Shown here in pieces: positions 15,414-32,000 of a stretch of 32,000 bases of DNA. How positions within the stretch are numbered: position 1 is the first letter of the stretch; each line of letters opens with the position of its first letter. The position numbers and the translations under genes were made by a program. The notes under the pieces are model-generated. The model was given only the letters and a program-made list of their open reading frames with translations. It searched no databases and had not been told where the DNA came from. Source of the DNA: Candidatus Harpocratesius repetitus. Its GTDB lineage: Archaea > Asgardarchaeota > Lokiarchaeia > Sigyniarchaeales > Promethearchaeaceae. The stretch lies in the NCBI GenBank assembly GCA_021498095.1, contig JAIZWK010000001.1, positions 840,001 through 872,000 on the forward strand, written 5' to 3'.

Positions 15414-16160
15414 ATGTCCGCGGAGAATAAACCAATACGAGAAATCGTTACTCCAGGTCAAGTTATTGCCACCGATCCTGGGTTAATTGCAGGAAGAGGG
15501 GCAATAAAGGAAGATAATGGTCAAATTACGTCTGTCTTTGTTGGATTAAAGGAAATCCGAGGAAAATATGTTAATGTTGTGCCATTAAATGGGCTTTATA
15601 ATCCTCAAATTGGAGATAAAGTAATAGGGCGAGTAATTGCAAAAACACCAGTAAAATTTCTGCTTGACATTAATGCAAAATTTTTAGGAATTTTGAAACC
15701 ATCTGATGCATTTAAAAGACCACATCAGAATCGGGGCTATCCAAAATCAATGGGTACATATAGATTGCCTCGAGAAAATGATATGGATAAGTTAAAAATG
15801 GGAGATCAAATTATTTGTAAAATTTTATCCGGATCACGAACTGAAGAACCAGCACTTACCAGCTTGGGTCAAGAGCTTGGACTAATCACAGAAGGGTTAG
15901 TTATTGCAATATCTCCCACAAAAATTCCCCGAGTGATTGGAAAAAAGGGAAGTATGATCGCCTTATTAAAGAATTTATTACATTGTAAAATTTTTGTGGC
16001 TCAAAATGGGCGTATTTGGATTCATGGACGAAATCCTGAAAATGAACGATTATTAATTGAAGTGATATATAAAATTGAGCGTGAAGCTCATACAACTGGA
16101 TTAACTGATAGAGTTAAAGCATATATTTTAAAAGAAAAGAAAATTCGAGGTATCAAATAA
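15414..16160 (+). CDS. rrp4: exosome cap subunit Rrp4 (S1 + KH)
   Basis: IVTPGQ, YNPQIGDKVIG (S1), KIPRVIGKKGSMI and AQNGRIWI (KH), EAHTTGLTDRV. ATG 15414 preferred. Confidence 0.95.
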   Translation: MSAENKPIREIVTPGQVIATDPGLIAGRGAIKEDNGQITSVFVGLKEIRGKYVNVVPLNGLYNPQIGDKVIGRVIAKTPVKFLLDINAKFLGILKPSDAFKRPHQNRGYPKSMGTYRLPRENDMDKLKMGDQIICKILSGSRTEEPALTSLGQELGLITEGLVIAISPTKIPRVIGKKGSMIALLKNLLHCKIFVAQNGRIWIHGRNPENERLLIEVIYKIEREAHTTGLTDRVKAYILKEKKIRGIK

Positions 16161-16162
16161 AA

Positions 16163-18132: not shown

Positions 18133-18251
18133 GCTTAATTAGGTTACTTTTTTTCAATTGATTTTTTTTATTTTTTGGCGACAAATTCACAAAATTTTTT
18201 TATTTTGCTACTTTGAAGTAATTATTATCTTAGCATGTTGAAGTGAAATTT

Positions 18252-18539
18252 ATGCCTAAAACAAAAAAAGTGGGTATTTCGGGAAAATTCGGCCCGCGAT
18301 ATGGATCTAAATTACGCAAACAGTGGAATGAAATAGCAGAAAAACAAAAAGGTCCTACAAAGTGTCCTAAATGTGAATCCAAAATCTCTAATATGCGCGA
18401 GTTTATCGGAGTGTGGCATTGCAAAAAGTGTGGTGCACGCTGGACTGGTGGTGCTTGGGAAAGTTCCACTGCCCGTGGAAAAGAATCTCATCGAATTGCG
18501 ACCCGATTAGCCCGTGAAACATCAGAAGCAGAGAATTAA
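18252..18539 (+). CDS. rpl37ae: 50S ribosomal protein L37Ae (eL43)
   Basis: TKKVGISGKFGPRYGSKLRK, CPKC...GVWHCKKCG....GGAW. Confidence 0.97.
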   Translation: MPKTKKVGISGKFGPRYGSKLRKQWNEIAEKQKGPTKCPKCESKISNMREFIGVWHCKKCGARWTGGAWESSTARGKESHRIATRLARETSEAEN

Positions 18540-18654
18540 ATTTGATAATGGTTCATAAAAAATATTATTCAAAACTTTTTTTACTTAGTTTTTCTAATTT
18601 CAATCTATTTATCCTAATGCTTAAAAATTCTGAATTATATAGGATCTTAAGAAA

Positions 18655-18915
18655 ATGCGTATTTCTACAGAAATTTCTTTAATTTTTTCTTCTTTTGAAA
18701 ATCGTGATATTTTTTATCAAAGTTTTATGCCTGAATTTGATCGTACAAACATGAAACGATCGACTTGGGTCGTTAAAACACCTTCTTCTACAGAGCCACT
18801 ATTAATTTTTCAAATTCAAGCAGATGATGCTACGGCGTTTCGCGCTACTATTAATTCCTTAATTCAATTTGCATCTATTGTTGAAAGAACTCTAGAATTA
18901 GCTGAGAATTCATGA
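18655..18915 (+). CDS. pcc1: KEOPS complex subunit Pcc1
   Basis: 86 aa with IQADDATAFRATINSLI signature; conserved position after rpl37ae. Confidence 0.85.
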   Translation: MRISTEISLIFSSFENRDIFYQSFMPEFDRTNMKRSTWVVKTPSSTEPLLIFQIQADDATAFRATINSLIQFASIVERTLELAENS

Positions 18916-19020
18916 TTATATCATAATCTCAAAAAATTTTAAATAAGCGATCTACATCTAAAAAATATTAAAGTAATTTCTCTTAGAAAAAAATAATTAA
19001 TGTATTAGGGAGATGTAAAA

Positions 19021-19641
19021 ATGCCAATTGTAACTCATCAAGATGAATATCTGTTATCGAAAATTGATATAGAATTAGCCGGAATGTTGAATTATTTAGC
19101 TCGAGATATTGAATCAATTAGGAATCAAGAGAAGAAACTTGGAGATATGTATCAATCTTATACCAAGGATTTAGGAAAATACATTCGAAAAATGCGTGAT
19201 AAAAGCAAACAAATGGATGTATTAGCCAGAGAAGATAAATCTGGAATAACTAAGGCAGATGTCGATGCTTACAAAAAACAAATTCAAAAGGTTGATGATC
19301 GAATTCGAATGATTGAAGGATATTATGACAGAATGAAAGATCTAGCTCTTCAAAAAAATAATTTAATCAAACGAATGAATGAATATGCGAAATTGATTGT
19401 GAATCATGCAAAAATCCGAAAAACAATAGTCGATATAGGTTTACGTATTGAAAAAGAAAAGAATAAAATGGTTGCAGCTGAATCTATTTCAAAAAATGAA
19501 GATAAATTAAAGGATGCTGAGAGAGAGTTTGAACGCAGTAAAAAAGAATTGAATAAAAAATGGAATCAACTAGAAGAAGAACGACAAGAAGTTAATAATA
19601 TGTGGAAAGCTTTGAAAGATTCTATTGATAACTTTGAATAA
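19021..19641 (+). CDS. all-helical coiled-coil protein (possibly BAR-like)
   Basis: 206 aa, K/E/R-rich heptads, only one Pro near the N-terminus; GGAGA upstream of the ATG. Confidence 0.75.
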   Translation: MPIVTHQDEYLLSKIDIELAGMLNYLARDIESIRNQEKKLGDMYQSYTKDLGKYIRKMRDKSKQMDVLAREDKSGITKADVDAYKKQIQKVDDRIRMIEGYYDRMKDLALQKNNLIKRMNEYAKLIVNHAKIRKTIVDIGLRIEKEKNKMVAAESISKNEDKLKDAEREFERSKKELNKKWNQLEEERQEVNNMWKALKDSIDNFE

Positions 19642-19701
19642 AATTATTTATTTTGCTTCTTCATTTGGATTTTTTTCATTTTTAACAAATAAATGAAATG
19701 A

Positions 19702-21177
19702 TCAGATATTTTGATTTAAAATTGTTCTTAACTGATTTAAAGTGAAGGGTTTTCGCAGAACCCCTAAAAATCCGAATTTCTTTGGATTAGCCATTATTGG
19801 ATCATTTGAATAACCACTTGCTACTATCGCTCGAATTTTTGGATCATACTCTTTTAATTCTGCAATAACTTCCTTTCCACCTAATCCACCTGGAATTGTT
19901 AGATCCAATATAACTAATCCAAAAGGTGAATTATTTTTATAAGCTTCCTTATAAATTCTTATAGTATCTTCTCCTTTTTCGGTAAAAACTGCGTCATAAT
20001 TCAAATGATGTATTAATTTTTCCATAATTCTTTGAATAGAATGATCATCTTCTAGAATAAGAATAGAATTTGATATTTTTTCTTCATTATTTGCTTTTTT
20101 CTTCTGAGAAGTGCTATTTTCTGAATATATTTCAATTGAATCTTGAGCAGGTAAATATATACAAAATTCTGTGTAATGATTATTTTTATCAGTTGATGTA
20201 TTAAAACATATAAAACCTTGATGGAATTTTACAATCGAATAAACAGTTGCTAAACCTAAGCCTGAACCCATCTTTTTTGTTGTGAAATAAGGATCAAAAA
20301 TTTTTGAATGATATTTCTCTGGGATACCCGTTCCAGAGTCCCGTATTTTAATTTCGATATATCGACCTGGGGGAATGAGTATTCGATGAAAATATCCCAT
20401 CTTTTTGTAAACTGGAGTTTTTATTTCGACATTATGAAAATGAAGAAAAATTTCTCCCCCATTAGGCATTGATTGATCCGCATTAATTATTAAATTCGAT
20501 ATTACTTGAGATATTTGATTTGCATCTACTACAGATAACCATAGTTTATGATCAAAATCTAAAGTACATTTTGATCTAGATCCCCGTAATGCAAAAATTG
20601 CAGTTTCTGTAATTACTTTTGTTAAATCCGTTGGTTTTTTTACCGGAGCACCTCCTGTAGCAAATGTAAGGAGTTGTGTAGTTAAATTTTGTGCCCGCAT
20701 GATGGATTTTTCAGCATCTTTCAAAGTTTCTCTTATAAAATTTAAATCGTCTTCTTCTAATGCAAGAGTTATATTTCCTAATAACGCTGCAAGAATATTA
20801 TTAAAATCGTGTGCAATTCCTCCAGCTAAAGTTCCAATACTTTCTAATTTTTCCTGATTAAGTTGATATTCTGTTAATTCAGTGGGTGTCTTATTATCTT
20901 CAAGAAATAAAATCATTTCTTTTGAATCTGTTTTCTCTGAGAGAAGATCTATATTTACAATATAGGGGAACTTTTGCCCGTGTTTAGTAATAATTTCCAT
21001 TTCATATTTTCCAGAAAATGTTTTATTCTGTTGAAATGATTCAAAAATATTCTTTCCAAGAGATTGATAATCAGGAGCTATAAAATTTAAAATAGATTTA
21101 CCAATAATTTCATCCAAAGTCATCTTAAAGACATTTAGACCTGCTGAATTTACTTGTAATATCTTTAATGAATTCAA
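19702..21177 (-). CDS. hybrid sensor kinase PAS-HisKA-HATPase-REC
   Basis: GGIAHDFNNIL H-box, NLIINADQSM N-box, DSGTGI and DPYFTTK.MGSGLGL G-boxes, REC with EDD, LDLTIPG, SGY and KPF. The true start is probably upstream (frame open to 21261). Confidence 0.93.
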   Translation of the reverse strand: MNSLKILQVNSAGLNVFKMTLDEIIGKSILNFIAPDYQSLGKNIFESFQQNKTFSGKYEMEIITKHGQKFPYIVNIDLLSEKTDSKEMILFLEDNKTPTELTEYQLNQEKLESIGTLAGGIAHDFNNILAALLGNITLALEEDDLNFIRETLKDAEKSIMRAQNLTTQLLTFATGGAPVKKPTDLTKVITETAIFALRGSRSKCTLDFDHKLWLSVVDANQISQVISNLIINADQSMPNGGEIFLHFHNVEIKTPVYKKMGYFHRILIPPGRYIEIKIRDSGTGIPEKYHSKIFDPYFTTKKMGSGLGLATVYSIVKFHQGFICFNTSTDKNNHYTEFCIYLPAQDSIEIYSENSTSQKKKANNEEKISNSILILEDDHSIQRIMEKLIHHLNYDAVFTEKGEDTIRIYKEAYKNNSPFGLVILDLTIPGGLGGKEVIAELKEYDPKIRAIVASGYSNDPIMANPKKFGFLGVLRKPFTLNQLRTILNQNI

Positions 21178-21446
21178 ATCTACTATGATTATTATCGGAG
21201 ATATAAATTTGGTACTTATTTCATCTCTTGAGTTAATATTTGAAATAAATATTTTCCTCCCTCAAATTCTTATAAATAAGAAATTTTCTATTAATCATTA
21301 TTTTTTAATTATCATAACTCCAATTCCAAGTTTTAAGTAGATTTTTACTTTTATTAACTATAGTTTTAAAATAATTATAAGAAAAATTTCCATTTTTTAT
21401 AATTCATAAAAATAAGAAGAATGATAAAAAAAATCGCAATTATTGA

Positions 21447-22226
21447 TTATCCATATGAAATTATCCTAAAAGAATCTTCGATTTTTAAAAAATAATTCAT
21501 ATTTTTGGAATTTAGCACTAATTCGCCCTCATCATTAATTCCATTAATAATACATTTTTTACCATTATTTAAGGTAATTTGGTTTCCTATATATAATAGA
21601 TGTTGATTATATTGTGATATTAGTAATGTTTTTTTATTTTTTGGAAAATTTACAATATATGATTCCCAAATTTCATGATATAAGTTCTTTAACAAGATTC
21701 GAGCAAAATTAACAATAGGAACTTTTGTATGAGTCAAATCAAAAACTGAGACTACATTTTCTTTTAAGTAATCTGGAAAATTTGTTGTCGAATTGTTTAA
21801 ATTTATACCAATTCCAATTAGAAGAAAATTGAAATTTACTTGAGAGATTAATTCTAGTAAAATTCCACCCATTTTCTTAAATCGATAAGAATTGGATGAA
21901 AAGGTAATAACTAAATCATTTGGCCATTTAATAACAGCAGGTATATTTAGGTATGTGTTTAGGAAAGATTGTAGAAGTTGAACGATTCCATAATGGAGAA
22001 AAACAAATTGTTCATTAGATAAAAGTTTTGGTAAGGGTATTCCAAGAGTGCTCCAAAATCCTCCAATTGGAGAGATCCAATCATCATTCTTTCGTCCTCT
22101 TCCGTGTTTTTGGGTTTTTGCAATCAAAAAAATACTTTGATTTGAGTTTTGGTGAATATATGGAATGATTGCATCTTGAGTTGATGAAACTTCATCAATA
22201 TAAATTATCTTTACAGAAGGTATCAC
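21447..22226 (-). CDS. birA: biotin--protein ligase, class I (no N-terminal HTH)
   Basis: SSTQD, Q.HGRGRK...W.SP.GG, IKWPNDL, KMGGILLE, IGIGINL motifs; GTG start. Confidence 0.93.
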   Translation of the reverse strand: MIPSVKIIYIDEVSSTQDAIIPYIHQNSNQSIFLIAKTQKHGRGRKNDDWISPIGGFWSTLGIPLPKLLSNEQFVFLHYGIVQLLQSFLNTYLNIPAVIKWPNDLVITFSSNSYRFKKMGGILLELISQVNFNFLLIGIGINLNNSTTNFPDYLKENVVSVFDLTHTKVPIVNFARILLKNLYHEIWESYIVNFPKNKKTLLISQYNQHLLYIGNQITLNNGKKCIINGINDEGELVLNSKNMNYFLKIEDSFRIISYG

Positions 22227-22231
22227 GATAT

Positions 22232-22294
22232 AAAAAAAAAAAAGTGCTTGTTAAATTTTCTTACCATCATCCTACTCGGAAAGGTAGGTGGTAA
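22232..22294 (-). promoter_or_regulatory. hairpin followed by a T12 run in the birA leader
   Basis: On the + strand, TTACCA-tcat-CCTAC-N8-GTAGG-TGGTAA (22261-22294). The A12 run at 22232-22243 is T12 on the birA strand, ending 5 nt before the GTG. Confidence 0.4.
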
Positions 22295-22401
22295 CTTTAT
22301 ATGTAAAATTAAATTCTTCATCTCCATTATATTCTTATTTTTCAACTTTTACGAGAAAAGAGAAAAAATACTAATCCAATGGGGATAACTCGAATTTTCT
22401 T

Positions 22402-22409
22402 TTTATATA
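22402..22409 (+). promoter_or_regulatory. candidate TATA box of the carboxyltransferase gene
   Basis: TTTATATA ends 24 nt before ATG 22434, the usual archaeal spacing for a near-leaderless transcript. Confidence 0.45.
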
Positions 22410-22433
22410 AAATAACATTTATTCAATTCAATA

Positions 22434-24008
22434 ATGATTTTAGAAAAAATTGAAGGTAGCCAATCACCTTCACCTTCTTCATCTGATCTTATTGGGCTCC
22501 GACGTAAGTCTAAAGAAGGTGGAGGGCCATTAAAAATCGAATCTCAACACCGGAAAGGAAAAATGACTGCTCGGGAGCGAATTGATTTATTAATTGATCC
22601 TGGAACCTTCACAGAAATCGATGAGTTTATACTTCATCGCTCCACTAAATTTGGGATGGAACATCAAAAATACTATGGTGATGGTGTTGTCACGGGATTT
22701 GGTTTCATCAATGGGAGAAAAGTATTCTTATATAGTCAAGATTTTACTGTTATGGGCGGAAGTTTAGGGAATGCACACGCTAAGAAAATTTGTAAAATTA
22801 TGGATCTTGCAATTAAAAATGGTTGTCCTATAATTGCTCTTCTTGATTCTGGGGGTGCCAGAATTCAAGAGGGTGTAGATTCTTTAGCTGGATTTGGCGA
22901 AATCTTCCATCGAAATGTTCAAGCTTCAGGTGTCATTCCTCAAATATCCGTTATTTTAGGTTCATGTGCAGGAGGTGCGGTCTATAGTCCTGCACTTACA
23001 GATTTCGTCATCATGGGTGGGGATCATGCATATATGTTCGTTACTGGGCCTCAAGTTGTCGAATCTGTGACAGGAGAACAAGTTTCTTTTAATGATCTTG
23101 GGGGGAAGGATATTCATGCGAATATTTCGGGTGTTGCACATCTGGTCGCTAATTCTGAAGAACAAACCTTGGATCTGGTAAAAAAATTACTATCTTACAT
23201 CCCTTCCAATAATTTAATGGATGCACCACGAGGAAATACTGAATTAGAGCCAGATCAAACCATAAATCTTGATACAATAATTCCAGAAAATGAAAATGAA
23301 CCTTATGATATGAAATTTGTAATTAAAGGAATTATTGATAAAGGCTCTTTCTTTGAAATTTTTCCTTCTTTTGCTAAAAATATCATCACAGGATTTGGAC
23401 GTTTACAAGGGAATACAATTGGAATAATTGCTAATCAACCAATGGTTTTGGGAGGCGCAATAGACTTTCATGCTTCTGATAAAAGTGCCAGATTCATCCG
23501 ATTTTGTGATTCGTTTAATATTCCTATTTTGACATTAGTTGATGTTCCTGGTTTCATGCCTGGAACTAAACAAGAATATGCTGGTATAATCCGGCATGGA
23601 GCTAAGATGATATTTGCATATTCTGAAGCAACAGTTCCAAAAATCACGATTATTACTAGAAAAGCATATGGGGGTGCATATATCGTTATGGCTTCAAAGC
23701 ATTTGGGCGCAGATATTAATTTAGCGTGGAATTCTGCCCAAATTGCCGTTATGGGTGCTGAAGGTGCATGTAAAATTCTTTATCGAAAAAAAATTCAAAA
23801 ATCTGACGATCCAGAGAAAGAATTAGAAAGATATATTGCACAATATAAACGAGAGTTTTCAAATCCATTTCAAGTTGCTGAATTGGGCTATGTTGATAAA
23901 GTCATTTTTCCTTCAGAATCCCGTTCAATTATTTTAAATTCGCTGCAATTTCTTATAAATAAGCGTGAAAATGTCCCAAAAAGAAAGCATGGTAATTTTC
24001 CTGTCTGA
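22434..24008 (+). CDS. acyl-CoA carboxylase carboxyltransferase subunit (PccB/AccD type)
   Basis: GKMTARERID.L.DPG.F.E, DGVVTGFG, QDFTVMGGSLG, DSGGARIQEG, GSCAGGAVYSPALTD, DVPGFMPG, RKAYGGAY, KHGNFP. Confidence 0.97.
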   Translation: MILEKIEGSQSPSPSSSDLIGLRRKSKEGGGPLKIESQHRKGKMTARERIDLLIDPGTFTEIDEFILHRSTKFGMEHQKYYGDGVVTGFGFINGRKVFLYSQDFTVMGGSLGNAHAKKICKIMDLAIKNGCPIIALLDSGGARIQEGVDSLAGFGEIFHRNVQASGVIPQISVILGSCAGGAVYSPALTDFVIMGGDHAYMFVTGPQVVESVTGEQVSFNDLGGKDIHANISGVAHLVANSEEQTLDLVKKLLSYIPSNNLMDAPRGNTELEPDQTINLDTIIPENENEPYDMKFVIKGIIDKGSFFEIFPSFAKNIITGFGRLQGNTIGIIANQPMVLGGAIDFHASDKSARFIRFCDSFNIPILTLVDVPGFMPGTKQEYAGIIRHGAKMIFAYSEATVPKITIITRKAYGGAYIVMASKHLGADINLAWNSAQIAVMGAEGACKILYRKKIQKSDDPEKELERYIAQYKREFSNPFQVAELGYVDKVIFPSESRSIILNSLQFLINKRENVPKRKHGNFPV

Positions 24009-24086
24009 TGATAAAAAAATCTTTTTTCTACTATACTAATATTTCAAAAATTAAACTCAAAACTTAAAACTGAAGAGGTTGTAAAG

Positions 24087-26180
24087 ATGAAAAAACCACA
24101 TGAAATACTTAAAATTTTAAACAACACATTGCCGATCTGGGGATATAATCCTCAAGGTTTTGAAGATATAACTGTTCTTGTAACCCTCTGCGAAAATAAT
24201 GCTGTAGGTATATTAAATACTGAATCTCTTTCTATTTTACAGACTAATAAAATAATTAAACGAATATCAAAACAAATACAACCTTCAAAAATATGGGGAA
24301 TTCGCATTACTAATGAAGATTTCATCTCTGATTTAGATTTTAGCACAAATAATGTGATTGCAATTTGTTCGTTTGTTCCATCAAGTAAAAGTCTTGAAAT
24401 TTTAAAAAAGAAATCACTGCTTATCTGTGCAGAAGTGTTGACTTCACAAGAAGCAAAATCTAAAGCAAAATGGGCCGATTTTTTCTTAGTTCGCGGAAAT
24501 GAAGCCGGTGGTTTTGTTAGTAATCGAAATTCTTTCATTCAAATTCAAGAATTCTACAAATTGGGATATAGCTTTATCATTGAAGGTGGATTTGGCATAT
24601 ACAATGTTGGTGCGGCCTTAATTGGTGGTGCTCTTGGTGTAGTTTATGAATCACAATTGTATTTATTAAATGAATCTCCATTAAGTCATCAATTTAAATC
24701 TTATATTAAAACCCTGCAAGAAAATGATTTCTACTTGTTTGCTGAAAGTGAACATTTTAACTTTCGTTTGATTGGAAAATTGGCCAATAAATCTATTCGA
24801 GAAGTTAAATTGAAAGAAAAAGACTTTTATAAGCAAATTCTTGAAAAAGAAGGAGATATTACCCGAGAAGAGTTCACAAAAATTTTATTTAGTGTTATTC
24901 AAAAAGATCGGGGAAAACAAATTGGATTTCCGGATTTTTCATCAAAATACCCTAAACATTCATTTCTTCCTTGTGATCATGGTATCATTTTTGCAAATCA
25001 GATTGCTGAGCAATTTCAGTCCATTTCAAGATTTATTCAAAAAATAACTGAAATTATTATTCGACAACATAAATTAATTAAAAAACAGTGGCCTTTTCAA
25101 GAATCTAGCCCATTTGCTCAGAATATAAATGTCAAATATCCTATCATCCAAGGTCCAATGGCAAATATTACTGAATCGATTGAATTTGCCCAAATTGTTG
25201 CAGATCACGGAGCATTACCGACATTTGCTTTAGGGGGTTTGATGGGACCTGAAGCAGATGCATTATTGGAAAAAATCTCAAATTCATCTTTACAAAACTA
25301 CCAATATATGGCTGGAATTATTGGATTAGAAGTTGTTAAAAAACGTCGTGAACTTCAATTAGAATCTATAAAAAAACACAATGTTCCCTTTACATTAATT
25401 GCAGCAGGTTCAGTTGATTTAGCCAAACAAGTAATTAGACAAGGTGAAAGAGTTTTTTTACATACTCCTGCTCTATCTATGTTTAAAGAAGCCGTGAAAA
25501 ACCAAATTGAATTTTTAATTTTAGAAGGGAGTGAATGTGGAGGTCATATTGGAACCCTTTCATCTTGGATATTGTGGGAAAACATACTTCAATACTGTAA
25601 AAAAGAACAACAATCATTTTCTCAAAAAATTAACGTTATTTTCGCAGGAGGTATTATTAATGAAACCAGCAGTGCGATGTTGGCGATGATGATTGGTGAT
25701 CATCTCGATATAATCAATCCTGGAATTCAGATGGGAACATCCTATCTTTTCACTCCAGAAATTACATCTTCAAAGGCATTATCTCCCCTTTATCAGAATC
25801 TATTGTTGAATCATGACTCAACTCGTGTCATAGGCGCAACTGTAAATACACGAGCACGTGTAATTCCATCGATATTTAGTTCAGAAACAATCAAAAAAGA
25901 ACTTCATCGAATAACAGAAGAAATTCCAATTTCAAAGCGTAAAGAACTTTATGAAAAGGATAATTTGGGTGCTTTGCGAATTGCTGCACAAGCAGAAATC
26001 TGGAATAATGATCATATTCCAGGAACAGGGACTACTCAATTTATTCCAATATCTCCAGAAAAACAAGAAAAACTAGGTGCATTCATGACTGGCGAGTCAC
26101 TAACTCTTCGTACGACAGTCGTCCCTATAAAAAATTTACACTACGATATTACCAAAGGAGGATTTCATAAAGTTTCAAAT
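24087..26180 (+). other. domains: tandem FabK/nitronate-monooxygenase-like (PfaD-type) enoyl-reductase barrels
   Basis: Barrel 1 has RGNEAGGF, IIEGGFG and GALGV. Barrel 2 has YPIIQGPM, LEGSECGGH, IFAGGI and GIQMGTSY. Boundaries are approximate. Confidence 0.8.
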
Positions 26181-29100
26181 CTTCAAAAATATAATTCATT
26201 GAATCAAATTCTTAATTTTAAGAATCAATTAAAATCCAAGCCTGTTTTTGAAAAAACAAAAAAAAAATTCGCCGATTCTCGGGTTGCAATAGTAGGAATT
26301 GGTGGAGTATTTCCTGATGCTTCAAATATTAATGAATTCTGGGATAATATTTTATCAGAGAAATATTCTATTACTGAGGTTCCTAAAGATCGATGGAATT
26401 ATGAAATATATTTCAGTGAAGATCGAAATCAAAAAGATAAAACTTACACTAAAATTGGGGGTTTTATCAAGGACTTTAAATTCAAATCAATTAAATTTCG
26501 AATCCCCCCACAAATGGCTAAGAGAATGGATCCTGTCCAGAAATGGGCTTTAACTGCAGCTAAAGAGGCGTTAATGGATGCAAATTATCCTATTGATGGA
26601 AAACAATCTCTATCATTGGCTGTTATTATCGGAAACTCTTTAGGGGGGGAAATTCAAAGATATAATGATAAAAGGGTCTTCTTCAACGAAATTAATCACT
26701 ATCTATATCAAGCAGAAAAGAAAAATATCGGAGATTCAAACTCTATTCGGAGAATTAAATCTTATCTTGAAGAAAATATAATCAAAAATATTCTTCCTAT
26801 TAATGAAGATACAATGCCTGGTGAATTATCAAATATAATTGCTGGCAGAATTAGTAATGTCTTCAATTTAAACGGAAAGAATTTAACTACTGATGCAGCA
26901 TGTGCTTCAAGTCTTGCAGCTTTAGATACAGCGGTAAAGGGTCTTCTATTAGGAGATTACGACGCAGTTTTAGCCGGTGGGGCTGATCATTCAATGGATC
27001 CATCTGTTTTTATAAAATTCTCAAAGATTGGGGCGCTTTCCGCAAAAAAGTCTTGTCCATTTGATGCAGAAGCAGATGGTTTTGTTATGGGAGAAGGAGC
27101 AGGTTTTGTTGTACTTAAACGATTATCTGATGCAATTCGCGATAATAATAAAATTTATGCGGTAATTAGGGGAATAGGTGCTTCTTCAGATGGTAGAGGT
27201 AAAGGAATTACTGCACCTAACCTACAAGGTCAAAAAATGGCTGTCATACGAGCGCTAGACTCCGCTAAAATTCAAGAAAAAGATCTTCAATATATTGAAT
27301 GTCATGGTACTTCCACTGTAATAGGAGATGCTACTGAATTAATGGTGCTTCAAGAATTACTCCACTCTAAAAATCCATCTCAGAAAATTGCAATTGGTTC
27401 TGTTAAAAGTCAAATTGGGCACTTAAAAAGTGCAGCTGCTATCGCTTCAATTATCAAAACGAGTCTGGCACTTTATCATAAAATTATCCCTCCTTCTATA
27501 AATTTTAATATTCCAAATCCCAAAATTGACTGGGATAATGTTCCTTTTTATGTAAATACTCACGCTAAAGAATGGATTCGTCCTCAAAATTCCATAAGGA
27601 GAGCAGGTGTTTCAGCTTTTGGATTTGGTGGGACCAATTTTCATGTCATATTAGAAGAGTTTTGTCCCGAATCTTTAAACAATTCTATAAATTCTATTCC
27701 AGAATATATTCCATATTCTGAGGGAATCATTCAAACGAATCAAAAAAGTGCATTTTCATTTGATAATTCTGATCCTTCTTTAGTATTTATGTTTAGTGGT
27801 CAAGGAAGTCAATATGTCGGGATGGGTCATGAATTATATGAGACAATTCCAGAAATACGAGATATCTTAAATCGTGCTAATGAAATTTGTCAGAGTTTTG
27901 GAGATTTTAACCTTCTTCAAATTTTATTTGGTGATAAATCGAAATCAAAAAGTGAAAATCAAAAAATATTAACTCAAACACAGTTCACTCAACCAGCGAT
28001 TTTTAGCTTGGAAATTGCCTTATTCAAATATTTAAATAACCGTGGGATTGTCCCAGGAATTGTTGCCGGTCATAGTTTGGGAGAATTCTCTGCCCTTGTT
28101 ACTGCAGGAGTGATGGATTTTGAAGATGCATTAAAAGCTGTCATTATTCGAGGTCAAGCAATGGGTACATCCACTCCTGATTCTAAATGTGGAATGGCTG
28201 CCCTATTGTGTCCAATTTCTCAGGTAGAAGAAATTCTAAAAAAAGTTAAAGAGGGAAATGTTTCGATTTCTAATTATAATTCTCCTACACAGACTGTTAT
28301 TTCAGGTGATTTGGTAGGTATTCAAAATGCCTTAAAAGTATGTCAAAAAGAAAATGTTAGAGCAAAACAATTAAATGTGTCACAAGCGTTTCATTCAAAA
28401 TTTGTGGCATCTGCTGGTTCTAAATTAGCGGAGTATTTAAATACCATCAAATTTCATAAACCAAATATTCCAGTATACAGCAATGTCTTAGGCAGTGCAT
28501 ACCCGACTAATTCTGATAAAATAAAGGGGATTTTATTAGATCAAATTACCTCACCTGTACGTTGGACTGACGAGATAGAGCAGATTTATAATGCGGGAGG
28601 AAGAAAATTTGTAGAAGTTGGACCTAAAAAAGCCTTATTCTACTTTGCTAAAGAAATTTTGAAAAAAGCAAAAAATGTTTCTCAATTCTTTACTTTAACT
28701 CCAAAAAAATCTGAAGTAGAATATCTAAAACAAATAACAGACGAAATTAGTAATCAAATGCAAAATAGAGAGCAAAATTTTTCCTTAAAATCCAAATATC
28801 TCTTTTCTAAACAGAATTTACCGAAGATACTTAGCCAAAATAAAGAAATATCAAATAATAATGTGTTTGATGAATTAATTTCTGATAAAACTATCCAAAG
28901 TCTTAGTACACAACCTCATTTTAGAGAATTTCTTGCTCAACAAAAAGAAATACTCGCCCCCATGTTAAAAGCATCCTATTCTCAATTTATTCGCTTGTAT
29001 AGACAAGAACAAGAACGAAAAAAGAAAGAATCGTCACAATTTATCCAAAATACACTACAAATTGGAGTAACCGGTGTTGGATTGGGAATTCCAGGAAAAA

Positions 29101-32000
29101 ATCGAAATGTATTCGATGATTCTAACATTATTGCAATTTTAAATGGGGAAAATTTTATTGAACCTCTTCCTGAAGAAGTTAAAAAAGGAATATTAGATAA
29201 AAATATTGTTCGATTAAATAAAACTTCTAATGGAGATGCCTCTTTTATAGAAATAAAGGATATTTCTCAAGTTATTCATCTTGCTGGGCAAATTGGTGCA
29301 TTTGATCCCAAAAAAGATTTTCTTCTGGATGATAAACTGCTGAATGCTCTGGATATCACTTCAAAATTAGCAATTGGCGCCGGATTGGAAGCTTTGAAAG
29401 ATGCTGGAATTCCTTTAGTAAAATCAAAGATTACTACAACAACAGGTAAGATAATTTCTGGAGATTGGGCATTACCAGAAGAACTACAAAGAGATACCGG
29501 TGTTATTTTTGCCTCTGCATTTCCTGGATTGGACAATTTGGTAAAGGATCTTACCACTCACTTAACACAACAGTTAAAATTAGAAACATTTGAGAAATTT
29601 AATCAAAAGTTTTCCAAATTTCTAAATGAAATTTCTCATTCCAAAATTAAAAAAGAGTTAGAAGAATGGTATTATGAAAATAAAGCCTTAATTTTTGGTG
29701 ATAAGAAAGATCTTATACATTTTAACCGTGCATTTCTCTTTCGAATCTTATCCATGGGTCATTCCCAATTTGCACAAATTATCAAAGCTAAAGGGCCAAA
29801 TACACAAGTAAATGCTGCATGTGCATCTACTACTAATGCTTTCGCAATTGCTGAAGACTGGATTAGAACTGGGCGCTGTAATCGAGTAATTGTGATTTCT
29901 GGAGATTGTCCAACTACAAAAAGTCTCTTTCCATGGCTTGGAGCAGGATTTGTTGCAAGTGGAGCTGGAACAATCAAACAAAACTTAACAGATGCAGTTT
30001 TACCCTTTGGAATTGGTCGAAATGGCCTTATTGCTGGAGCGGGTGCGTCTGCATTTGTTCTAGAAACTCAATCTGAATCAAATAGACGTGGGATTAAGCC
30101 AATCGTTGATTTATTAGGAACACAAATAAGCAATAGTGCATATCATGGATCTCGTCTTGATAAACTAGACATTACGGAAGAATTCAATCGTTTTATTACA
30201 ACAATGGTTAATCAACACAAAATCACAAAATCTGAAATTGCTCGTAAAGGTATGTTTGTCAGTCATGAAACTTACACACCGGCTCGAGGTGGAAGTTCTG
30301 AATCAGAATTGGAAGCATTATCTAATACTTTCGGACCAGATGTGAGTAAATTACTCATTATCAACACCAAAGGATTTACTGGTCATCTTATGGGAGTTGG
30401 TATGGAAGAAGCTGTTGCGATAAAATCAATTGAGTACGGGATTATTCCTCCAATTGCAAATTTTGGTAAAATAGATCCAAAATATAGCAAGTTTTACTTC
30501 TCAACTGGGATTAAAGAACGAAAAGATTATGCAATTCGGTTTGCTGCAGGTTTTGGATCCCAAATTGCAATTTTAATGTTCCGAAAAAATACACCCACTA
30601 ATAGAAAGGATGAAAAAGTGTATCATGCTTGGCTTCAATCTGTTGCAGGTTCAACTTCTCTCTTTTTAGATGGCCGAGTTTTAAAAGTAGACTCAAAACA
30701 GCAAATTTCATTCTCACAAAAGCAATCAATTCCATCTATTTTACAAACATCAAAATCAAATGAAACAATTTTAGCCACCTTGATTCAAATTATTGCTGAA
30801 AAAACAGGTTATGATATCTCAGATCTTGAACCACAGTACCATTTAGAAGAAGATTTAGGGATTGATACGATTAAACAAGCAGAGATTTTCGGAGAAATTG
30901 GAGAGAAATGGAATATTGAGGAAAATCAGTCTTGGAATATTAGTGAAATGCAAAGTATTGCGGATATAGCCAAAGTATTATCGCGAATGGTGAATGACTC
31001 ATCTCAGATTTCATCCCAGACTTCAAGTAATAATCATATTAATCAAAATAATTGGGAAGAAAAAGTCCGGGCAATTATTTCGGAAATTACAGGTTATGAT
31101 CATGAAGATATTCAATTGGATTTTGATTTAGAAGAAGATCTGGGGATTGATACCATAAAACAAGCAGAGATTTTTGGTAGAATTAGAGAAGAATGGCAAA
31201 TTCCTGAAGAGACTAGTATCAATCTTACAGAATTTCGTAGTATTAATGATATTCTTGCCTTTTTATCTAAAAATTTCTCTGGTTCCAGCTCTCAAACTAA
31301 AAATACCATTGATCTAAGTACATCAGAAACAAATATTGACCAACCAACTCAAATCAAAGAAGAGGAGATCAAGAAAATTATATCTGAAGTGACTGGTTAT
31401 GATCTTGAAGATATTCAATCTGATTTTGATTTAGAAGAAGATCTGGGGATTGATACCATAAAACAAGCCGAAATTTTTGGGCGCATTAGAGAAGAATGGC
31501 AAATCTCTGAAGATACTCAAATAAATCTAGCTGATTTTCGAACGATTCAAGATATTTTAACTCTTTTGAATTCAACTAAAAAAGTAAATAATTCAATAGA
31601 TAATAGTGTTGCAACTGTCGATAATTCTCAGATCTCTAAAAGTAATGATAAAAATAGAAGTGAATCCAATATAGATCAAGTTAAATCAATTATTGCAGAA
31701 ATTACAGGTTATGATTCAGAAGATTTGGAACTAGATTTTGATTTAGAGGAAGATCTGGGGATTGATACCATAAAACAAGCGGAAATATTTGGTCAGATTC
31801 GTGAGAAATGGCAAATTTCAGATGAATCTTTGATTAATATCGCTGAATTTCGGACAATAAGAGATATTTTAAATTACATCACAAAAATTAATGAAAGAAA
31901 TCTAAGTTCCCAAGAAATTCCCCAAATTGCGAAATCATCAAATGAAAATAGAACAGTAAACGAAATTATAGAATCACGAATAAAATCGATAATATCAAGA
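24087..32000 (+). CDS. giant type I FAS/PKS-like synthase: pseudoER-ER-KS-AT-KS-ACPn (3'-partial, at least 2638 aa; not in the ORF track)
   Basis: GAGGT at 24075-24079, ATG 24087. Hand translation stays open to the window end, and every motif falls in the same frame: YPIIQGPM (25137), ECGGH (25533), DAACASS (26892), HGT (27303), GH (27417), GQGSQ (27798), GHSLG (28068), NAACAST (29811), four GIDTIKQ. Confidence 0.95.
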   Translation, partial: MKKPHEILKILNNTLPIWGYNPQGFEDITVLVTLCENNAVGILNTESLSILQTNKIIKRISKQIQPSKIWGIRITNEDFISDLDFSTNNVIAICSFVPSSKSLEILKKKSLLICAEVLTSQEAKSKAKWADFFLVRGNEAGGFVSNRNSFIQIQEFYKLGYSFIIEGGFGIYNVGAALIGGALGVVYESQLYLLNESPLSHQFKSYIKTLQENDFYLFAESEHFNFRLIGKLANKSIREVKLKEKDFYKQILEKEGDITREEFTKILFSVIQKDRGKQIGFPDFSSKYPKHSFLPCDHGIIFANQIAEQFQSISRFIQKITEIIIRQHKLIKKQWPFQESSPFAQNINVKYPIIQGPMANITESIEFAQIVADHGALPTFALGGLMGPEADALLEKISNSSLQNYQYMAGIIGLEVVKKRRELQLESIKKHNVPFTLIAAGSVDLAKQVIRQGERVFLHTPALSMFKEAVKNQIEFLILEGSECGGHIGTLSSWILWENILQYCKKEQQSFSQKINVIFAGGIINETSSAMLAMMIGDHLDIINPGIQMGTSYLFTPEITSSKALSPLYQNLLLNHDSTRVIGATVNTRARVIPSIFSSETIKKELHRITEEIPISKRKELYEKDNLGALRIAAQAEIWNNDHIPGTGTTQFIPISPEKQEKLGAFMTGESLTLRTTVVPIKNLHYDITKGGFHKVSNLQKYNSLNQILNFKNQLKSKPVFEKTKKKFADSRVAIVGIGGVFPDASNINEFWDNILSEKYSITEVPKDRWNYEIYFSEDRNQKDKTYTKIGGFIKDFKFKSIKFRIPPQMAKRMDPVQKWALTAAKEALMDANYPIDGKQSLSLAVIIGNSLGGEIQRYNDKRVFFNEINHYLYQAEKKNIGDSNSIRRIKSYLEENIIKNILPINEDTMPGELSNIIAGRISNVFNLNGKNLTTDAACASSLAALDTAVKGLLLGDYDAVLAGGADHSMDPSVFIKFSKIGALSAKKSCPFDAEADGFVMGEGAGFVVLKRLSDAIRDNNKIYAVIRGIGASSDGRGKGITAPNLQGQKMAVIRALDSAKIQEKDLQYIECHGTSTVIGDATELMVLQELLHSKNPSQKIAIGSVKSQIGHLKSAAAIASIIKTSLALYHKIIPPSINFNIPNPKIDWDNVPFYVNTHAKEWIRPQNSIRRAGVSAFGFGGTNFHVILEEFCPESLNNSINSIPEYIPYSEGIIQTNQKSAFSFDNSDPSLVFMFSGQGSQYVGMGHELYETIPEIRDILNRANEICQSFGDFNLLQILFGDKSKSKSENQKILTQTQFTQPAIFSLEIALFKYLNNRGIVPGIVAGHSLGEFSALVTAGVMDFEDALKAVIIRGQAMGTSTPDSKCGMAALLCPISQVEEILKKVKEGNVSISNYNSPTQTVISGDLVGIQNALKVCQKENVRAKQLNVSQAFHSKFVASAGSKLAEYLNTIKFHKPNIPVYSNVLGSAYPTNSDKIKGILLDQITSPVRWTDEIEQIYNAGGRKFVEVGPKKALFYFAKEILKKAKNVSQFFTLTPKKSEVEYLKQITDEISNQMQNREQNFSLKSKYLFSKQNLPKILSQNKEISNNNVFDELISDKTIQSLSTQPHFREFLAQQKEILAPMLKASYSQFIRLYRQEQERKKKESSQFIQNTLQIGVTGVGLGIPGKNRNVFDDSNIIAILNGENFIEPLPEEVKKGILDKNIVRLNKTSNGDASFIEIKDISQVIHLAGQIGAFDPKKDFLLDDKLLNALDITSKLAIGAGLEALKDAGIPLVKSKITTTTGKIISGDWALPEELQRDTGVIFASAFPGLDNLVKDLTTHLTQQLKLETFEKFNQKFSKFLNEISHSKIKKELEEWYYENKALIFGDKKDLIHFNRAFLFRILSMGHSQFAQIIKAKGPNTQVNAACASTTNAFAIAEDWIRTGRCNRVIVISGDCPTTKSLFPWLGAGFVASGAGTIKQNLTDAVLPFGIGRNGLIAGAGASAFVLETQSESNRRGIKPIVDLLGTQISNSAYHGSRLDKLDITEEFNRFITTMVNQHKITKSEIARKGMFVSHETYTPARGGSSESELEALSNTFGPDVSKLLIINTKGFTGHLMGVGMEEAVAIKSIEYGIIPPIANFGKIDPKYSKFYFSTGIKERKDYAIRFAAGFGSQIAILMFRKNTPTNRKDEKVYHAWLQSVAGSTSLFLDGRVLKVDSKQQISFSQKQSIPSILQTSKSNETILATLIQIIAEKTGYDISDLEPQYHLEEDLGIDTIKQAEIFGEIGEKWNIEENQSWNISEMQSIADIAKVLSRMVNDSSQISSQTSSNNHINQNNWEEKVRAIISEITGYDHEDIQLDFDLEEDLGIDTIKQAEIFGRIREEWQIPEETSINLTEFRSINDILAFLSKNFSGSSSQTKNTIDLSTSETNIDQPTQIKEEEIKKIISEVTGYDLEDIQSDFDLEEDLGIDTIKQAEIFGRIREEWQISEDTQINLADFRTIQDILTLLNSTKKVNNSIDNSVATVDNSQISKSNDKNRSESNIDQVKSIIAEITGYDSEDLELDFDLEEDLGIDTIKQAEIFGQIREKWQISDESLINIAEFRTIRDILNYITKINERNLSSQEIPQIAKSSNENRTVNEIIESRIKSIISR
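26280..27660 (+). other. domain: ketosynthase 1 (type I / Pfa-like), Cys-His-His intact
   Basis: RVAIVGIGGVFPDA start, MDPVQ, DAAC (Cys 26901), ECHGT (His 27303), KSQIGHLK (His 27420), SAFGFGGTNFH. Confidence 0.95.
27783..28680 (+). other. domain: acyltransferase (malonyl-CoA:ACP transacylase-like)
   Basis: FMFSGQGSQY, TQPAIF, GHSLGE (Ser 28074), Arg in IRG, SQAFHS, PVRW, FVEVGP. Confidence 0.93.
29058..30587 (+). other. domain: ketosynthase 2 (FabF-like), Cys-His-His intact
   Basis: IGVTGVG start, EALKDAG, NAAC (Cys 29820), SHET (His 30264), TKGFTGHLMG (His 30384), AAGFGS. Confidence 0.88.
30762..32000 (+). repeat. tandem ACP domains: 4 complete plus the probable start of a fifth, all with GIDT
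   Basis: TGY...LEEDLGIDTIKQAEIFG with the Thr codon at 30867, 31152, 31455 and 31767 (spacing 95, 101 and 104 aa). IKSIISR at the window end resembles helix 1 of another copy. Confidence 0.92.

What the first reader, a model, noticed from the sequence alone, without database searches (positions are those of the whole stretch)
24087..32000. Giant ACP-dependent type I FAS/PKS-like megasynthase in an apparently Asgard archaeal genome, missed by the ORF track
Seen in sequence: one open frame of at least 2638 codons with the order pseudoER-ER-KS-AT-KS-(ACP)4+, intact catalytic motifs and a plausible RBS. It sits on the same stretch as clearly archaeal genes (exosome operon, L37ae, Pcc1) and has similarly AT-rich codons by eye. 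Established: archaeal membranes are isoprenoid-based and archaea are generally considered to lack ACP-dependent fatty acid synthases. FabK-type ER plus tandem ACPs are hallmarks of Pfa-type (PUFA/secondary lipid) iterative synthases, which normally split these domains over PfaA-D in another order. Inference: an iterative, probably fully reducing synthase making long acyl chains in an archaeon, which bears on the lipid divide and eukaryogenesis. KR, DH and a release domain or PPTase are predicted beyond the window. I cannot tell whether homologues have already been described.
Basis: partly seen in the sequence, partly recalled or inferred. Interest (0 to 1): 0.96.

Follow-up and report, generated by a model that had tools for sequence, protein, structure and literature searches.

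The report
Asgard archaeal all-in-one fatty-acyl megasynthase
A single 3,795-residue gene in a closed Asgard (Loki-type) archaeal genome encodes a complete carrier-protein-dependent fatty-acid/polyketide assembly line. It sits inside its own malonyl-CoA-supply gene cluster and carries threonine where all characterised carrier proteins have serine, although archaea are still generally described as lacking such machinery.

Summary
The frame from 24087 is open to the window's end and continues to a 3,795-aa gene: pseudo-ER, FabK-type ER, KS, AT, second active KS, five ACPs, KR, DH, fused Sfp-type PPTase. An α/β-hydrolase gene follows. Biotin ligase, carboxyltransferase, BCCP and biotin carboxylase genes flank it.

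The gene is native. It lies on a one-contig genome next to the archaeal exosome operon and has host-like composition. The cluster is conserved in three deep Asgard lineages. In this genome the only ACPs, the only PPTase and the only carboxyltransferase all belong to this cluster.

The protein passes NCBIfam's PfaA cut-off. Its core matches the uncharacterised "Type R" secondary-lipid synthases (Shulse & Allen 2011), which are widespread in bacteria. The Asgard form adds the ER pair and the PPTase in cis. All carrier sites are Thr rather than Ser across the whole family.

The best reading is a self-priming, fully reducing iterative synthase that makes a long, mostly saturated acyl chain. The product and its role remain inferred. 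PlsC-type acyltransferases do not co-occur with it, so a conserved link to bacterial-type phospholipids is not supported.

This scan found the same family earlier on other DNA (Heimdall-group Asgard, Poseidoniales, Thermoplasmatota).

The parts
19702..21177 (-). PAS-HisKA-HATPase-receiver hybrid sensor kinase; possible regulator of the cluster
   Evidence: Pfam. A PAS histidine kinase sits at the same place between the biotin ligase and the carboxyltransferase in a Loki relative (L020). It is absent from the Heimdall loci.
21447..22226 (-). Biotin-protein ligase (BirA type)
   Evidence: PF03099. TIGR00121 scores 113 bits, over the 83.1 cut-off. It is a conserved neighbour in L017, L018 and L020.
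22434..24008 (+). Carboxyltransferase subunit of a biotin-dependent acyl-CoA carboxylase, directly upstream of the megasynthase
   Evidence: PF01039 scores 641 bits. It is the only carboxyltransferase in the genome. It sits directly upstream of the megasynthase in every Asgard locus examined. Within the Loki order it occurs in 14/14 synthase-positive genomes and 1/140 synthase-negative ones.
24087..32000 (+). Megasynthase gene, first 2,638 of 3,795 codons. It continues to genome 875474 (L003:87-11474) with ACP5, KR (about L003:8874-9656), DH (about 9789-10721) and an Sfp-type PPTase (about 10764-11471)
24087..25106 (+). ERn: diverged FabK-fold barrel (pseudo-ER, aa 1-340) that has Phe where the active barrel has the GGH His and does not keep the QGPMAN motif
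   Evidence: hhalign against the ER barrel gives probability 98%, E 1.7e-13 over 274 columns. The AF2 model has pLDDT 86.5, and its top Foldseek hits are FabK (E 1.9e-14, TM 0.72-0.80).
25107..26186 (+). ER: FMN-type (FabK-like) enoyl reductase, aa 341-700
   Evidence: PF03060 and TIGR03151 FabK. It aligns to FabK structures with the E-x-E-x-GGH motif kept. The motif is present in 56/58 Asgard homologues.
26259..27731 (+). KS1: PfaA-type ketosynthase (aa 725-1215) with the Cys-His-His triad
   Evidence: PF00109, PF02801 and PF16197. The KS-AT segment scores 630 bits against PfaA positions 2-467. Motif census.
27768..28721 (+). AT: malonyl-type acyltransferase (aa 1228-1545), with GHSLGE and QAFHS
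   Evidence: PF00698 scores 169 bits. FabD TIGR00128 scores 245 bits. The xAFHS motif is present in 57/58 Asgard homologues. Malonyl specificity is inferred from the established HAFH/YASH rule.
29049..30791 (+). KS2: second, FabF-like ketosynthase (aa 1655-2235) with a lineage-variable insert. The catalytic Cys, His, His and Lys are all kept, so it is not a chain-length-factor type
   Evidence: NCBIfam FabF scores 124 bits. It aligns to FabF 1J3N. C258, H406, K441 and H446 are invariant in the 15-sequence Asgard plus bacterial alignment A1.
30792..32000 (+). Tandem ACP array: ACP1-4 and the start of ACP5. Thr codons occupy the phosphopantetheine position at 30867, 31152, 31455 and 31767 (the fifth lies just beyond the window)
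   Evidence: PF00550. The motif L-G-I-D-T-I-K-Q occurs five times. The same Thr is found in all 120 top homologues.

Best explanation
This is a native, functional gene for a self-contained, iterative, fully reducing type I acyl-chain synthase. It belongs to the PfaA subfamily, in the 'Type R' branch that has a second ketosynthase between the AT and the ACPs. Proposed mechanism, with each step marked as shown or inferred. The flanking biotin ligase, carboxyltransferase, BCCP and biotin carboxylase form an ATP-dependent acyl-CoA carboxylase that makes malonyl-CoA (gene content and coupling shown; substrate inferred). The C-terminal Sfp-type PPTase attaches phosphopantetheine to the five tandem ACPs at a Thr that replaces the canonical Ser (position shown; chemistry inferred). 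The AT loads malonyl units. Two active ketosynthases extend the chain, probably dividing the work by chain length as the two KS of PUFA synthases do (inferred by analogy). KR, a PKS-type DH and the FabK-type ER reduce each beta-keto group fully. Neither the gene nor the genome has a FabA-type isomerising dehydratase, so the expected product is a long, saturated or nearly saturated acyl chain rather than a PUFA (inferred). The conserved downstream alpha/beta-hydrolase with an intact Ser-Asp-His triad releases or transfers the chain (inferred). The N-terminal pseudo-ER barrel is a catalytically dead duplicate with a likely structural role. The physiological role of the product is unknown.
For: Gene and architecture. 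Whole-protein PfaA score of 1052.6 against a cut-off of 1010.1. Catalytic residues: ER (35), KS2, motif census over 58 Asgard homologues. Pseudo-ER. Native, not chimeric: one-contig genome; an independent 32-kb reassembly contig covers window 13000-31148 with no differences at even depth; GC 32.3% vs 31.0%, GC3 0.203 vs 0.216+-0.046, tetranucleotide distance at the 75th percentile; the archaeal exosome operon is adjacent. Family conserved in Asgard: >55 full-length homologues; 62/400 genomes and 19/85 genera, with f13 26/31, f15 9/12, f18 10/12, including the closed genome CP084166.1 of Ca. Heimdallarchaeum aukensis; two strongly supported all-Asgard clades, and a single Asgard clade is not rejected (p-AU 0.50). 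Functional coupling to the carboxylase: the same gene set surrounds the synthase in Heimdallarchaeaceae, a second Heimdall-group clade and Loki relatives; it is the only carboxyltransferase in this genome; within the Loki order the CT is present in 14/14 synthase-positive and 1/140 synthase-negative genomes; the biotin carboxylase passes the AccC cut-off. Self-containment: the only PP-binding domains and the only ACPS-family PPTase in the genome are in this gene. No FabA/FabZ domain in the genome. Hydrolase triad and conserved position. Thr as the attachment site: it is universal in the family, and Ser and Thr alternate at the same position within single proteins (P0022, P0066, P0070).
Against: There are no expression or lipid data for this organism. 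No product is known for any member of the family, bacterial ones included. In E. coli, ACP S36T cannot be phosphopantetheinylated (PMC3340395), so activity of the Thr carriers rests on conservation alone. The carboxyltransferase's best NCBIfam model is the methylmalonyl-CoA decarboxylase alpha subfamily (754 bits, below its cut-off), so acetyl-CoA specificity is not shown. The strict DH motif H-x3-G-x4-P is kept in the query but in only 7/53 Asgard homologues. An ER in cis does not prove that it acts in every cycle. The distribution is patchy in the host's own family, where only its own genus has the gene.
Confidence: 0.7

Rival explanations
1. The enzyme makes a specialised secondary metabolite rather than a plain fatty acid. 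This would be a partly reduced polyketide, polyene, hydroxy or otherwise decorated long-chain lipid. Reduction would be programmed differently in different cycles, and the two KS would handle distinct stages.
For: The family was catalogued among 'secondary lipid' synthases with unknown products. Tandem ACPs and two KS are features of programmed iterative synthases such as PUFA synthases (established knowledge). The distribution is patchy, like an accessory gene, in Lokiarchaeia. There is no co-occurrence with PlsC-type acyltransferases. The DH motif is variable.
Against: All three reducing activities are present in cis with intact signatures. There are no FabA-type isomerase, methyltransferase, cyclase, aminotransferase or tailoring genes in the conserved cluster. 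The gene is near-universal in whole Asgard families, which suits a core lipid better than a niche metabolite.
Confidence: 0.22
2. The carboxylase genes serve propionate or methylmalonyl-CoA metabolism, as proposed for Asgard biotin enzymes. On this view their adjacency to the synthase is incidental.
For: The CT's best model is the mmdA subfamily. Many Asgard families carry a close CT homologue without the synthase (f19 18/19, f9 3/3, others 71/89). Imachi et al. 2020 assign Asgard biotin ligase and BCCP to propionate fermentation.
Against: An ATP-grasp biotin carboxylase that passes the AccC cut-off is part of the cluster, so the enzyme carboxylates rather than decarboxylates. The CT is directly upstream of the synthase in all four lineages examined. 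In the Loki order the two genes are gained and lost together, even within one genus. The AT carries the malonyl-type xAFHS motif.
Confidence: 0.1
3. The gene is an inactive relic, because Thr carriers cannot be phosphopantetheinylated.
For: E. coli ACP S36T is not modified and is non-functional.
Against: An 11.4-kb frame is kept open here, and frames of 3,300-3,600 codons are open in dozens of genomes. The catalytic residues are conserved. Thr is kept in 2-6 ACPs of all 120 top homologues across bacteria and archaea. Mixed Ser/Thr arrays occur next to the same fused PPTase.
Confidence: 0.04
4. The gene belongs to a bacterial contaminant, an assembly chimera or a very recent bacterial transfer.
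For: The wider family is mostly bacterial, with at least 548 GTDB species. A few cluster members carry bacterial or Bathyarchaeia bin labels.
Against: The genome is a single closed contig. An unbroken independent contig joins the exosome operon to the synthase. Composition and codon usage are host-like. The nearest relatives are all Asgard and form well-supported Asgard clades. Other Asgard contigs carry the gene beside actin and Arf-family GTPase genes.
Confidence: 0.02

Closest known systems
'Type R' secondary lipid synthase cluster (Shulse & Allen 2011, PLoS One 6:e20146, PMC3098273; Koribacter, Solibacter, Elusimicrobium, Roseiflexus)
   Same: The core is a pfaA homologue with KS-MAT-(second KS-like domain)-tandem ACPs-KR and an associated PPTase. 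An ACC gene lies inside the Koribacter cluster, and the product is unknown. The KS2-bearing family I traced is abundant in the same phyla: Acidobacteriota including Korobacteraceae and Bryobacteraceae, Elusimicrobia and Chloroflexota.
   Different: The paper calls the second domain a CLF, but here and across the family it keeps Cys-His-His-Lys. The Asgard form adds a pseudo-ER plus ER pair at the N-terminus and fuses the PPTase in cis. A full carboxylase set and a hydrolase are clustered with it. The paper does not mention archaea or the Thr carriers. I did not compare directly with the four named strains.
PfaA subunit of bacterial PUFA synthases (NCBIfam TIGR02813)
   Same: The whole protein passes the model's cut-off, 1052.6 vs 1010.1. 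KS-AT, the ACP array and KR-DH align to PfaA positions 2-467, 1244-1703 and 1948-2525. Both have tandem ACPs.
   Different: There are no separate PfaB, PfaC, PfaD or PfaE. No FabA-type DH domains exist anywhere in the genome. The ER is closer to FabK than to PfaD (60 vs 19 bits) and is fused in cis. An extra KS follows the AT. The carriers read GIDT rather than GIDS.
Fungal/CMN-type FAS I (from established knowledge, not tested by sequence here)
   Same: An FMN-dependent TIM-barrel ER and a PPTase fused in cis, forming a self-activating fully reducing megasynthase.
   Different: The domain order and the KS/AT lineage differ entirely. No fungal FAS appeared among the sequence or fold matches of either ER barrel. 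There is no MPT or thioesterase logic.
Enediyne PKSE (KS-AT-ACP-KR-DH-PPTase; from established knowledge)
   Same: The C-terminal order ACP-KR-DH-PPTase, with the PPTase in cis.
   Different: PKSE has one ACP, no ER and no second KS, and it makes a polyene. No PKSE model appeared among the best NCBIfam matches listed.
ACP-independent archaeal fatty acid synthase complex (ketothiolase/DUF35 + SDR + MaoC + MDR; bioRxiv 10.1101/2024.07.05.601840)
   Same: It is proposed to give archaea, including Asgard, de novo fatty acids.
   Different: The proteins are unrelated, it depends on CoA rather than ACP, and it does not use malonyl-CoA. [quoted passage not shown]

Membership tests
PfaA subfamily (NCBIfam TIGR02813) | Whole-protein score above the curated cut-off (1010.1 bits) | tested here: met
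   1052.6 bits in 4 stretches.
PUFA synthase system (PfaA-E) | PfaC-type subunit with FabA-like dehydratase/isomerase domains that install cis double bonds | tested here: not met
   No PF07977 match anywhere in the one-contig genome, while 9 control genomes ring. The only DH is PKS-type (PF21089).
PUFA synthase system (PfaA-E) | Separate PfaD-family ER, PfaB AT and PfaE PPTase genes | tested here: not met
   The ER and the PPTase are fused in cis. The ER scores 60.5 bits against FabK and 19.1 bits against pfaD_fam. No second AT lies in the cluster.
Type R secondary lipid synthase (Shulse & Allen 2011) | pfaA homologue with KS-MAT-second KS-like domain-ACP(3-6)-KR | tested here: met
   The query contains KS1-AT-KS2-ACP5-KR(-DH). 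The definition was read in the paper.
Type R secondary lipid synthase (Shulse & Allen 2011) | Associated PPTase (a downstream gene in the type strains) | tested here: met
   A PPTase is present but fused to the C-terminus. Bacterial relatives mostly lack the fusion.
Type R secondary lipid synthase (Shulse & Allen 2011) | Direct orthology with the Koribacter, Solibacter, Elusimicrobium and Roseiflexus proteins | tested here: inconclusive
   KS2-family loci were found in Korobacteraceae, Bryobacteraceae, Elusimicrobia and Chloroflexota MAGs, but the four named strains were not retrieved.
Canonical acyl carrier protein (PF00550) | Conserved Ser in the D-S-L/I motif as the phosphopantetheine acceptor | tested here: not met
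   All five ACPs read G-I-D-T-I. The domain model is still matched above its cut-off.
Animal-type FAS I | Order KS-MAT-DH-ER(MDR)-KR-ACP-TE | tested here: not met
   The order differs, the ER is of the FMN/NMO type rather than MDR, and there is no TE domain.
Chain-length factor (KS-beta/CLF) for the second KS | Loss of the active-site Cys | tested here: not met
   The Cys is kept, with both His and the Lys, and all four are invariant in A1. KS2 is therefore a ketosynthase, not a CLF.
Sfp-type PPTase | ACPS-family fold with the G-x-D-x-E and W/F-x-x-K-E-A motifs | tested here: met
   PF01648 scores 65 bits. GLDLE is at aa 3680 and WTAKEA at aa 3717. The motifs are present in 51/52 and 50/52 full-length Asgard homologues.

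The most novel reading that the evidence does not exclude
Parts of the Asgard archaea, including the Heimdall-group lineages nearest to eukaryotes, make fatty acyl chains de novo. They would do so with a malonyl-CoA- and ACP-dependent type I synthase whose carriers hold phosphopantetheine on threonine, a post-translational linkage I found no description of. An ACP-dependent fatty-acid pathway would then have existed in the archaeal lineage before or independently of the mitochondrial endosymbiosis.
Probability: 0.15. Interest if true: 0.95.

Novelty: new variant of a known kind. Interest (0 to 1): 0.78.

Why it matters
Recent work on archaeal fatty acids (2024 preprint) still states that archaea have neither FAS I nor FAS II and almost never have ACP or its synthase. 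This gene shows otherwise for part of the Asgard. It is a complete, self-priming, ACP-dependent reducing synthase with a dedicated carboxylase, native to a closed Asgard genome and near-universal in several Asgard families, including Heimdallarchaeaceae.

That makes a long-standing question testable with named genes and organisms: can the archaeal relatives of eukaryotes build fatty acyl chains, and for what?

The family-wide Thr at the carrier site also points to a variant of phosphopantetheinylation that the E. coli system cannot perform. That would matter for carrier-protein enzymology and for engineering orthogonal ACP/PPTase pairs.

Two things temper this. The core architecture has been catalogued since 2011, no product is known, and my co-occurrence test speaks against a conserved hand-off to PlsC-type phospholipid synthesis.

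Tried and rejected
- **Expression:** no RNA holder was listed for the gene, so nothing can be said about expression.
- **Reads:** only Logan contigs, not raw reads, could be laid. Run X3 held only short pieces from a relative.
- **Tandem repeats:** Tandem Repeats Finder reported no DNA-level array over the ACP region. The repeats are clear at protein level, and the reassembly contigs break or fold back there.
- **Link to phospholipid synthesis:** PlsY was not found. Three PlsC-type genes exist in this genome, but across the phylum PlsC and the synthase are uncorrelated. I therefore rejected a conserved PlsC link.
- **Naming the organism:** I considered Ca. Harpocratesius repetitus and rejected it, because that assembly has two contigs. 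Two closed genomes of the same family (6.0 and 4.3 Mb) lack the gene.
- **Fungal FAS kinship of the ER:** no fungal FAS appeared among the sequence or fold hits.
- **Regular expressions:** my first patterns for the DH and PPTase motifs were mis-registered. I corrected them. The strict DH motif is not widely kept.
- **Literature:** searches for a dedicated description of the Asgard synthase or of Thr-linked phosphopantetheine found only passing mentions.
- **Asgard monophyly:** the free tree splits the Asgard sequences into two clades on a weak backbone. The AU test does not reject one clade, but that does not prove a single origin, and the groups were defined after I had seen the tree.
Full report
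**1. The observation**

The frame starting at ATG 24087 is open to the end of the window: 2,638 codons with no stop. The window is positions 840001-872000 of a genome held as a single 4,361,485-bp contig, so I could read on. The gene ends at genome position 875474 and encodes 3,795 residues (L003:87-11474). A GAGGT Shine-Dalgarno-like motif lies 7 nt before the start codon.

**2. Anatomy**

Pfam and NCBIfam give this order:
- an N-terminal region of about 340 aa
- an NMO/FabK-type ER
- KS, with its C-terminal extension
- AT
- a second KS
- five PP-binding domains
- KR
- a PKS-type DH
- an ACPS-family (Sfp-type) PPTase

*Pseudo-ER.* The N-terminal region is a diverged duplicate of the ER barrel. 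The profile-profile comparison gives 98% probability, E 1.7e-13, over 274 columns. A confident AF2 model (pLDDT 86.5, pTM 0.87) matches FabK structures best (E 1.9e-14, TM 0.72-0.80). This region has Phe where the active barrel has the His of E-x-E-x-GGH, and it does not keep the QGPMAN motif.

*ER.* The active ER aligns to FabK with that motif intact.

*Second KS.* KS2 aligns to FabF with the Cys, both His and the Lys in place. These four residues are invariant in a 15-sequence alignment of Asgard and bacterial members. It is a true ketosynthase, not a chain-length factor.

*AT.* The AT carries GHSLGE and the malonyl-type xAFHS motif, which is present in 57 of 58 Asgard homologues.

*DH and PPTase.* The query's DH has H-x3-G-x4-P, but only 7 of 53 Asgard homologues keep the strict form. 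The PPTase motifs G-x-D-x-E and W-x-x-K-E-A are kept in 51 and 50 of 52 homologues.

**3. The carriers**

All five ACPs read L-G-I-D-T-I-K-Q, so Thr replaces the Ser that accepts phosphopantetheine. This is not a quirk of this gene. Every one of the 120 best homologues, bacterial and archaeal, has 1-6 G-x-D-T motifs and almost none has G-x-D-S.

In a few proteins Ser and Thr alternate at this position along one ACP array. P0022 reads GIDS, GIDT, GVDS, and P0066 and P0070 are similar. That places the Thr at the attachment position and suggests one PPTase serves both residues.

In E. coli, ACP S36T cannot be modified and is non-functional (PMC3340395). The family therefore probably needs a PPTase adapted to Thr. 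That step is inferred, not shown.

**4. Neighbourhood**

- Upstream lie a hybrid sensor kinase, a BirA-type biotin ligase and a carboxyltransferase. The carboxyltransferase ends 78 nt before the synthase.
- Downstream, overlapping the stop codon, lies a 263-aa α/β-hydrolase with a G-E-S-F-G nucleophile elbow and the Asp and His of a triad.
- Then, on the other strand, come an isocitrate/isopropylmalate-type dehydrogenase, a BCCP and a biotin carboxylase. The biotin carboxylase passes the AccC cut-off.

Within this genome:
- The carboxyltransferase is the only one.
- The PP-binding domains in this gene are the only ones.
- Its PPTase is the only ACPS-family domain.
- There is no FabA/FabZ domain at all.

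Everything ACP-related in the organism is therefore in this one cluster.

**5. Is it native?**

Yes.
- The archaeal exosome superoperon (proteasome-α, SBDS, Rrp4, Rrp41, Rrp42, L37ae) lies 6-10 kb upstream.
- A 32-kb contig from an independent reassembly of a public run covers window 13000-31148 with no differences at even depth. It stops only in the ACP repeats. That run may be the source data, so this counts as consistency rather than independent proof.
- GC (32.3% vs 31.0%), GC3 (0.203 vs 0.216±0.046), codon usage and tetranucleotide composition are all typical of the genome.

**6. Relatives**

A search of 5.8 billion proteins returned more than 55 full-length homologues of 3,300-3,600 aa at 41-59% identity. 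They are labelled Lokiarchaeum, Promethearchaeota, Hodarchaeota, Heimdallarchaeota or Asgard group, and they include a protein from the original Loki sediment metagenome. Bacterial proteins follow at 30-40%.

All the Asgard proteins share the full layout. Most bacterial ones have only KS-AT-KS-ACPn-KR-DH. A few Desulfobacterota-type proteins also carry the ER pair or the PPTase.

In 400 genomes of the host's phylum:
- The gene is found in 62 genomes and 19 of 85 genera.
- It is near-universal in families f13 (26/31), f15 (9/12) and f18 (10/12). Family f13 contains the closed Ca. Heimdallarchaeum aukensis genome CP084166.1.
- It is rare in the Loki families, and within the host's own family it is limited to the host's own genus.

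A KS1+AT+KS2 tree gives two strongly supported all-Asgard clades on a weak backbone. In one of them, the Loki sequences (with the query) are sister to Heimdallarchaeaceae. An AU test does not reject a single Asgard clade (p 0.50).

The KS2-bearing family occurs in at least 548 GTDB species. These are mainly Chloroflexota, Acidobacteriota, Actinomycetota and Myxococcota, with Elusimicrobia and Thermoplasmatota archaea as well.

**7. Coupling to the carboxylase**

The same set of genes (biotin ligase, carboxyltransferase, synthase, hydrolase, BCCP, biotin carboxylase) surrounds the synthase in three other loci:
- a Heimdallarchaeaceae contig (L017), which has two CT and two BC copies
- a contig of the second Asgard clade (L018), where the CT is split by a frameshift
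- a Loki contig (L020), which even keeps the PAS kinase

Those contigs also carry actin or Arf-family genes.

Within the Loki order the carboxyltransferase is present in all 14 synthase-positive genomes and in 1 of 140 synthase-negative ones. This holds within a single genus too: in g19, 10/54 genomes have the CT and 9/54 the synthase, and the nine are among the ten. Relatives are not independent samples, but the pattern needs repeated joint gain or loss.

Elsewhere in the phylum the CT is common without the synthase. The carboxylase is therefore not exclusive to this cluster phylum-wide.

**8. What the product is not tied to**

PlsC-type acyltransferases are universal in Loki families that mostly lack the synthase. 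They are absent from f13 and f18, which nearly always have it. A conserved hand-off to bacterial-type phospholipid synthesis is thus not supported, although this particular genome has three PlsC-type genes.

**9. Comparison with the known**

- **PfaA.** The whole protein passes NCBIfam's PfaA subfamily cut-off (1052.6 vs 1010.1). The system nevertheless fails the defining features of a PUFA synthase: there are no FabA-type DH domains and no separate PfaB, C, D or E.
- **Type R.** Earlier notes of this scan pointed to "Type R" of Shulse & Allen 2011, and I read the paper. Type R is a pfaA homologue with KS-MAT-CLF-ACP(3-6)-KR plus a PPTase gene. It occurs in Acidobacteria, Elusimicrobia and Chloroflexi, has an ACC gene in the Koribacter cluster, and has no known product. 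The paper makes no mention of archaea. The core of the present gene fits that type.
- **What differs in the Asgard form.** The ER pair and the PPTase are in cis, the carboxylase set is complete, a hydrolase is conserved, and the "CLF" is catalytically intact.
- **Literature.** I found only passing mentions of Asgard PKS genes, for example a Heimdallarchaeota MAG in 2020. A 2024 preprint on archaeal fatty-acid synthesis still states that archaea lack FAS I/II and nearly always lack ACP.

**10. Verdict**

The gene is a real, native, conserved Asgard variant of an uncharacterised PfaA-like (Type R) synthase family. It is most likely a self-priming, fully reducing iterative synthase fed by its own malonyl-CoA supply. 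The product, the Thr-linked cofactor and the physiological role are all inferences that simple experiments could test.

The scan met the same family before on other DNA. I scored this finding on what I tested here.

Noticed in passing
G011:C1:136571-138226, G012:C197:4568-6229, G014:C12:45933-47609, G010:C171:9841-11448, G047:C190:9519-11030: Several Asgard genomes also carry stand-alone ORFs of about 550 aa that are 42-46% identical to the KS2 domain alone. Some have in-frame stop codons (TAA/TGA). They could be free-standing KS2 paralogues or decaying copies.
   Followed up: no
L018:8306-9953: In the second Asgard clade's locus, the carboxyltransferase upstream of the synthase is split into two overlapping ORFs (300 and 254 aa, 57-59% identical to the window's CT) and was not called as a gene. 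This is either a frameshift or an assembly error.
   Followed up: partly
L017:5126-10020 and 20875-22870: The Heimdallarchaeaceae locus has two carboxyltransferase genes and two biotin carboxylase genes around the synthase. That could give two carboxylases, perhaps with different substrates.
   Followed up: no
L003:12335-13429 (genome 876335-877429), minus strand: An isocitrate/isopropylmalate-type dehydrogenase lies between the hydrolase and the BCCP gene in this genome, but not in the three other Asgard loci examined. It may be a local NAD(P)H source or an unrelated insertion.
   Followed up: no
window:7115-9271 (-): A 718-aa ORF has no Pfam match at E 1e-5. It sits in a stretch with unusually strong GC skew (0.22-0.36) and low GC (0.29-0.33).
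   Followed up: no
L003:16044-16916 (genome 880044-880916), minus strand: A bPH_2 domain is fused to an XRE-type HTH just beyond the carboxylase genes. An earlier first-stage note flags this gene together with a palindromic operator.
   Followed up: no
window:31700-31999: One reassembly contig of the probable source run folds back by 300 bases inside the ACP array. Short-read contigs of two runs break there, as expected for near-identical ACP repeats. The ACP copy number (5) therefore rests on the closed assembly.
   Followed up: partly
L035, L038, L040, L049, L059, L064, L066, L070, L104: Many Thermoplasmatota MAGs carry KS2-family synthases at 42-45% identity, so the family is present in at least two archaeal phyla.
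   Followed up: no
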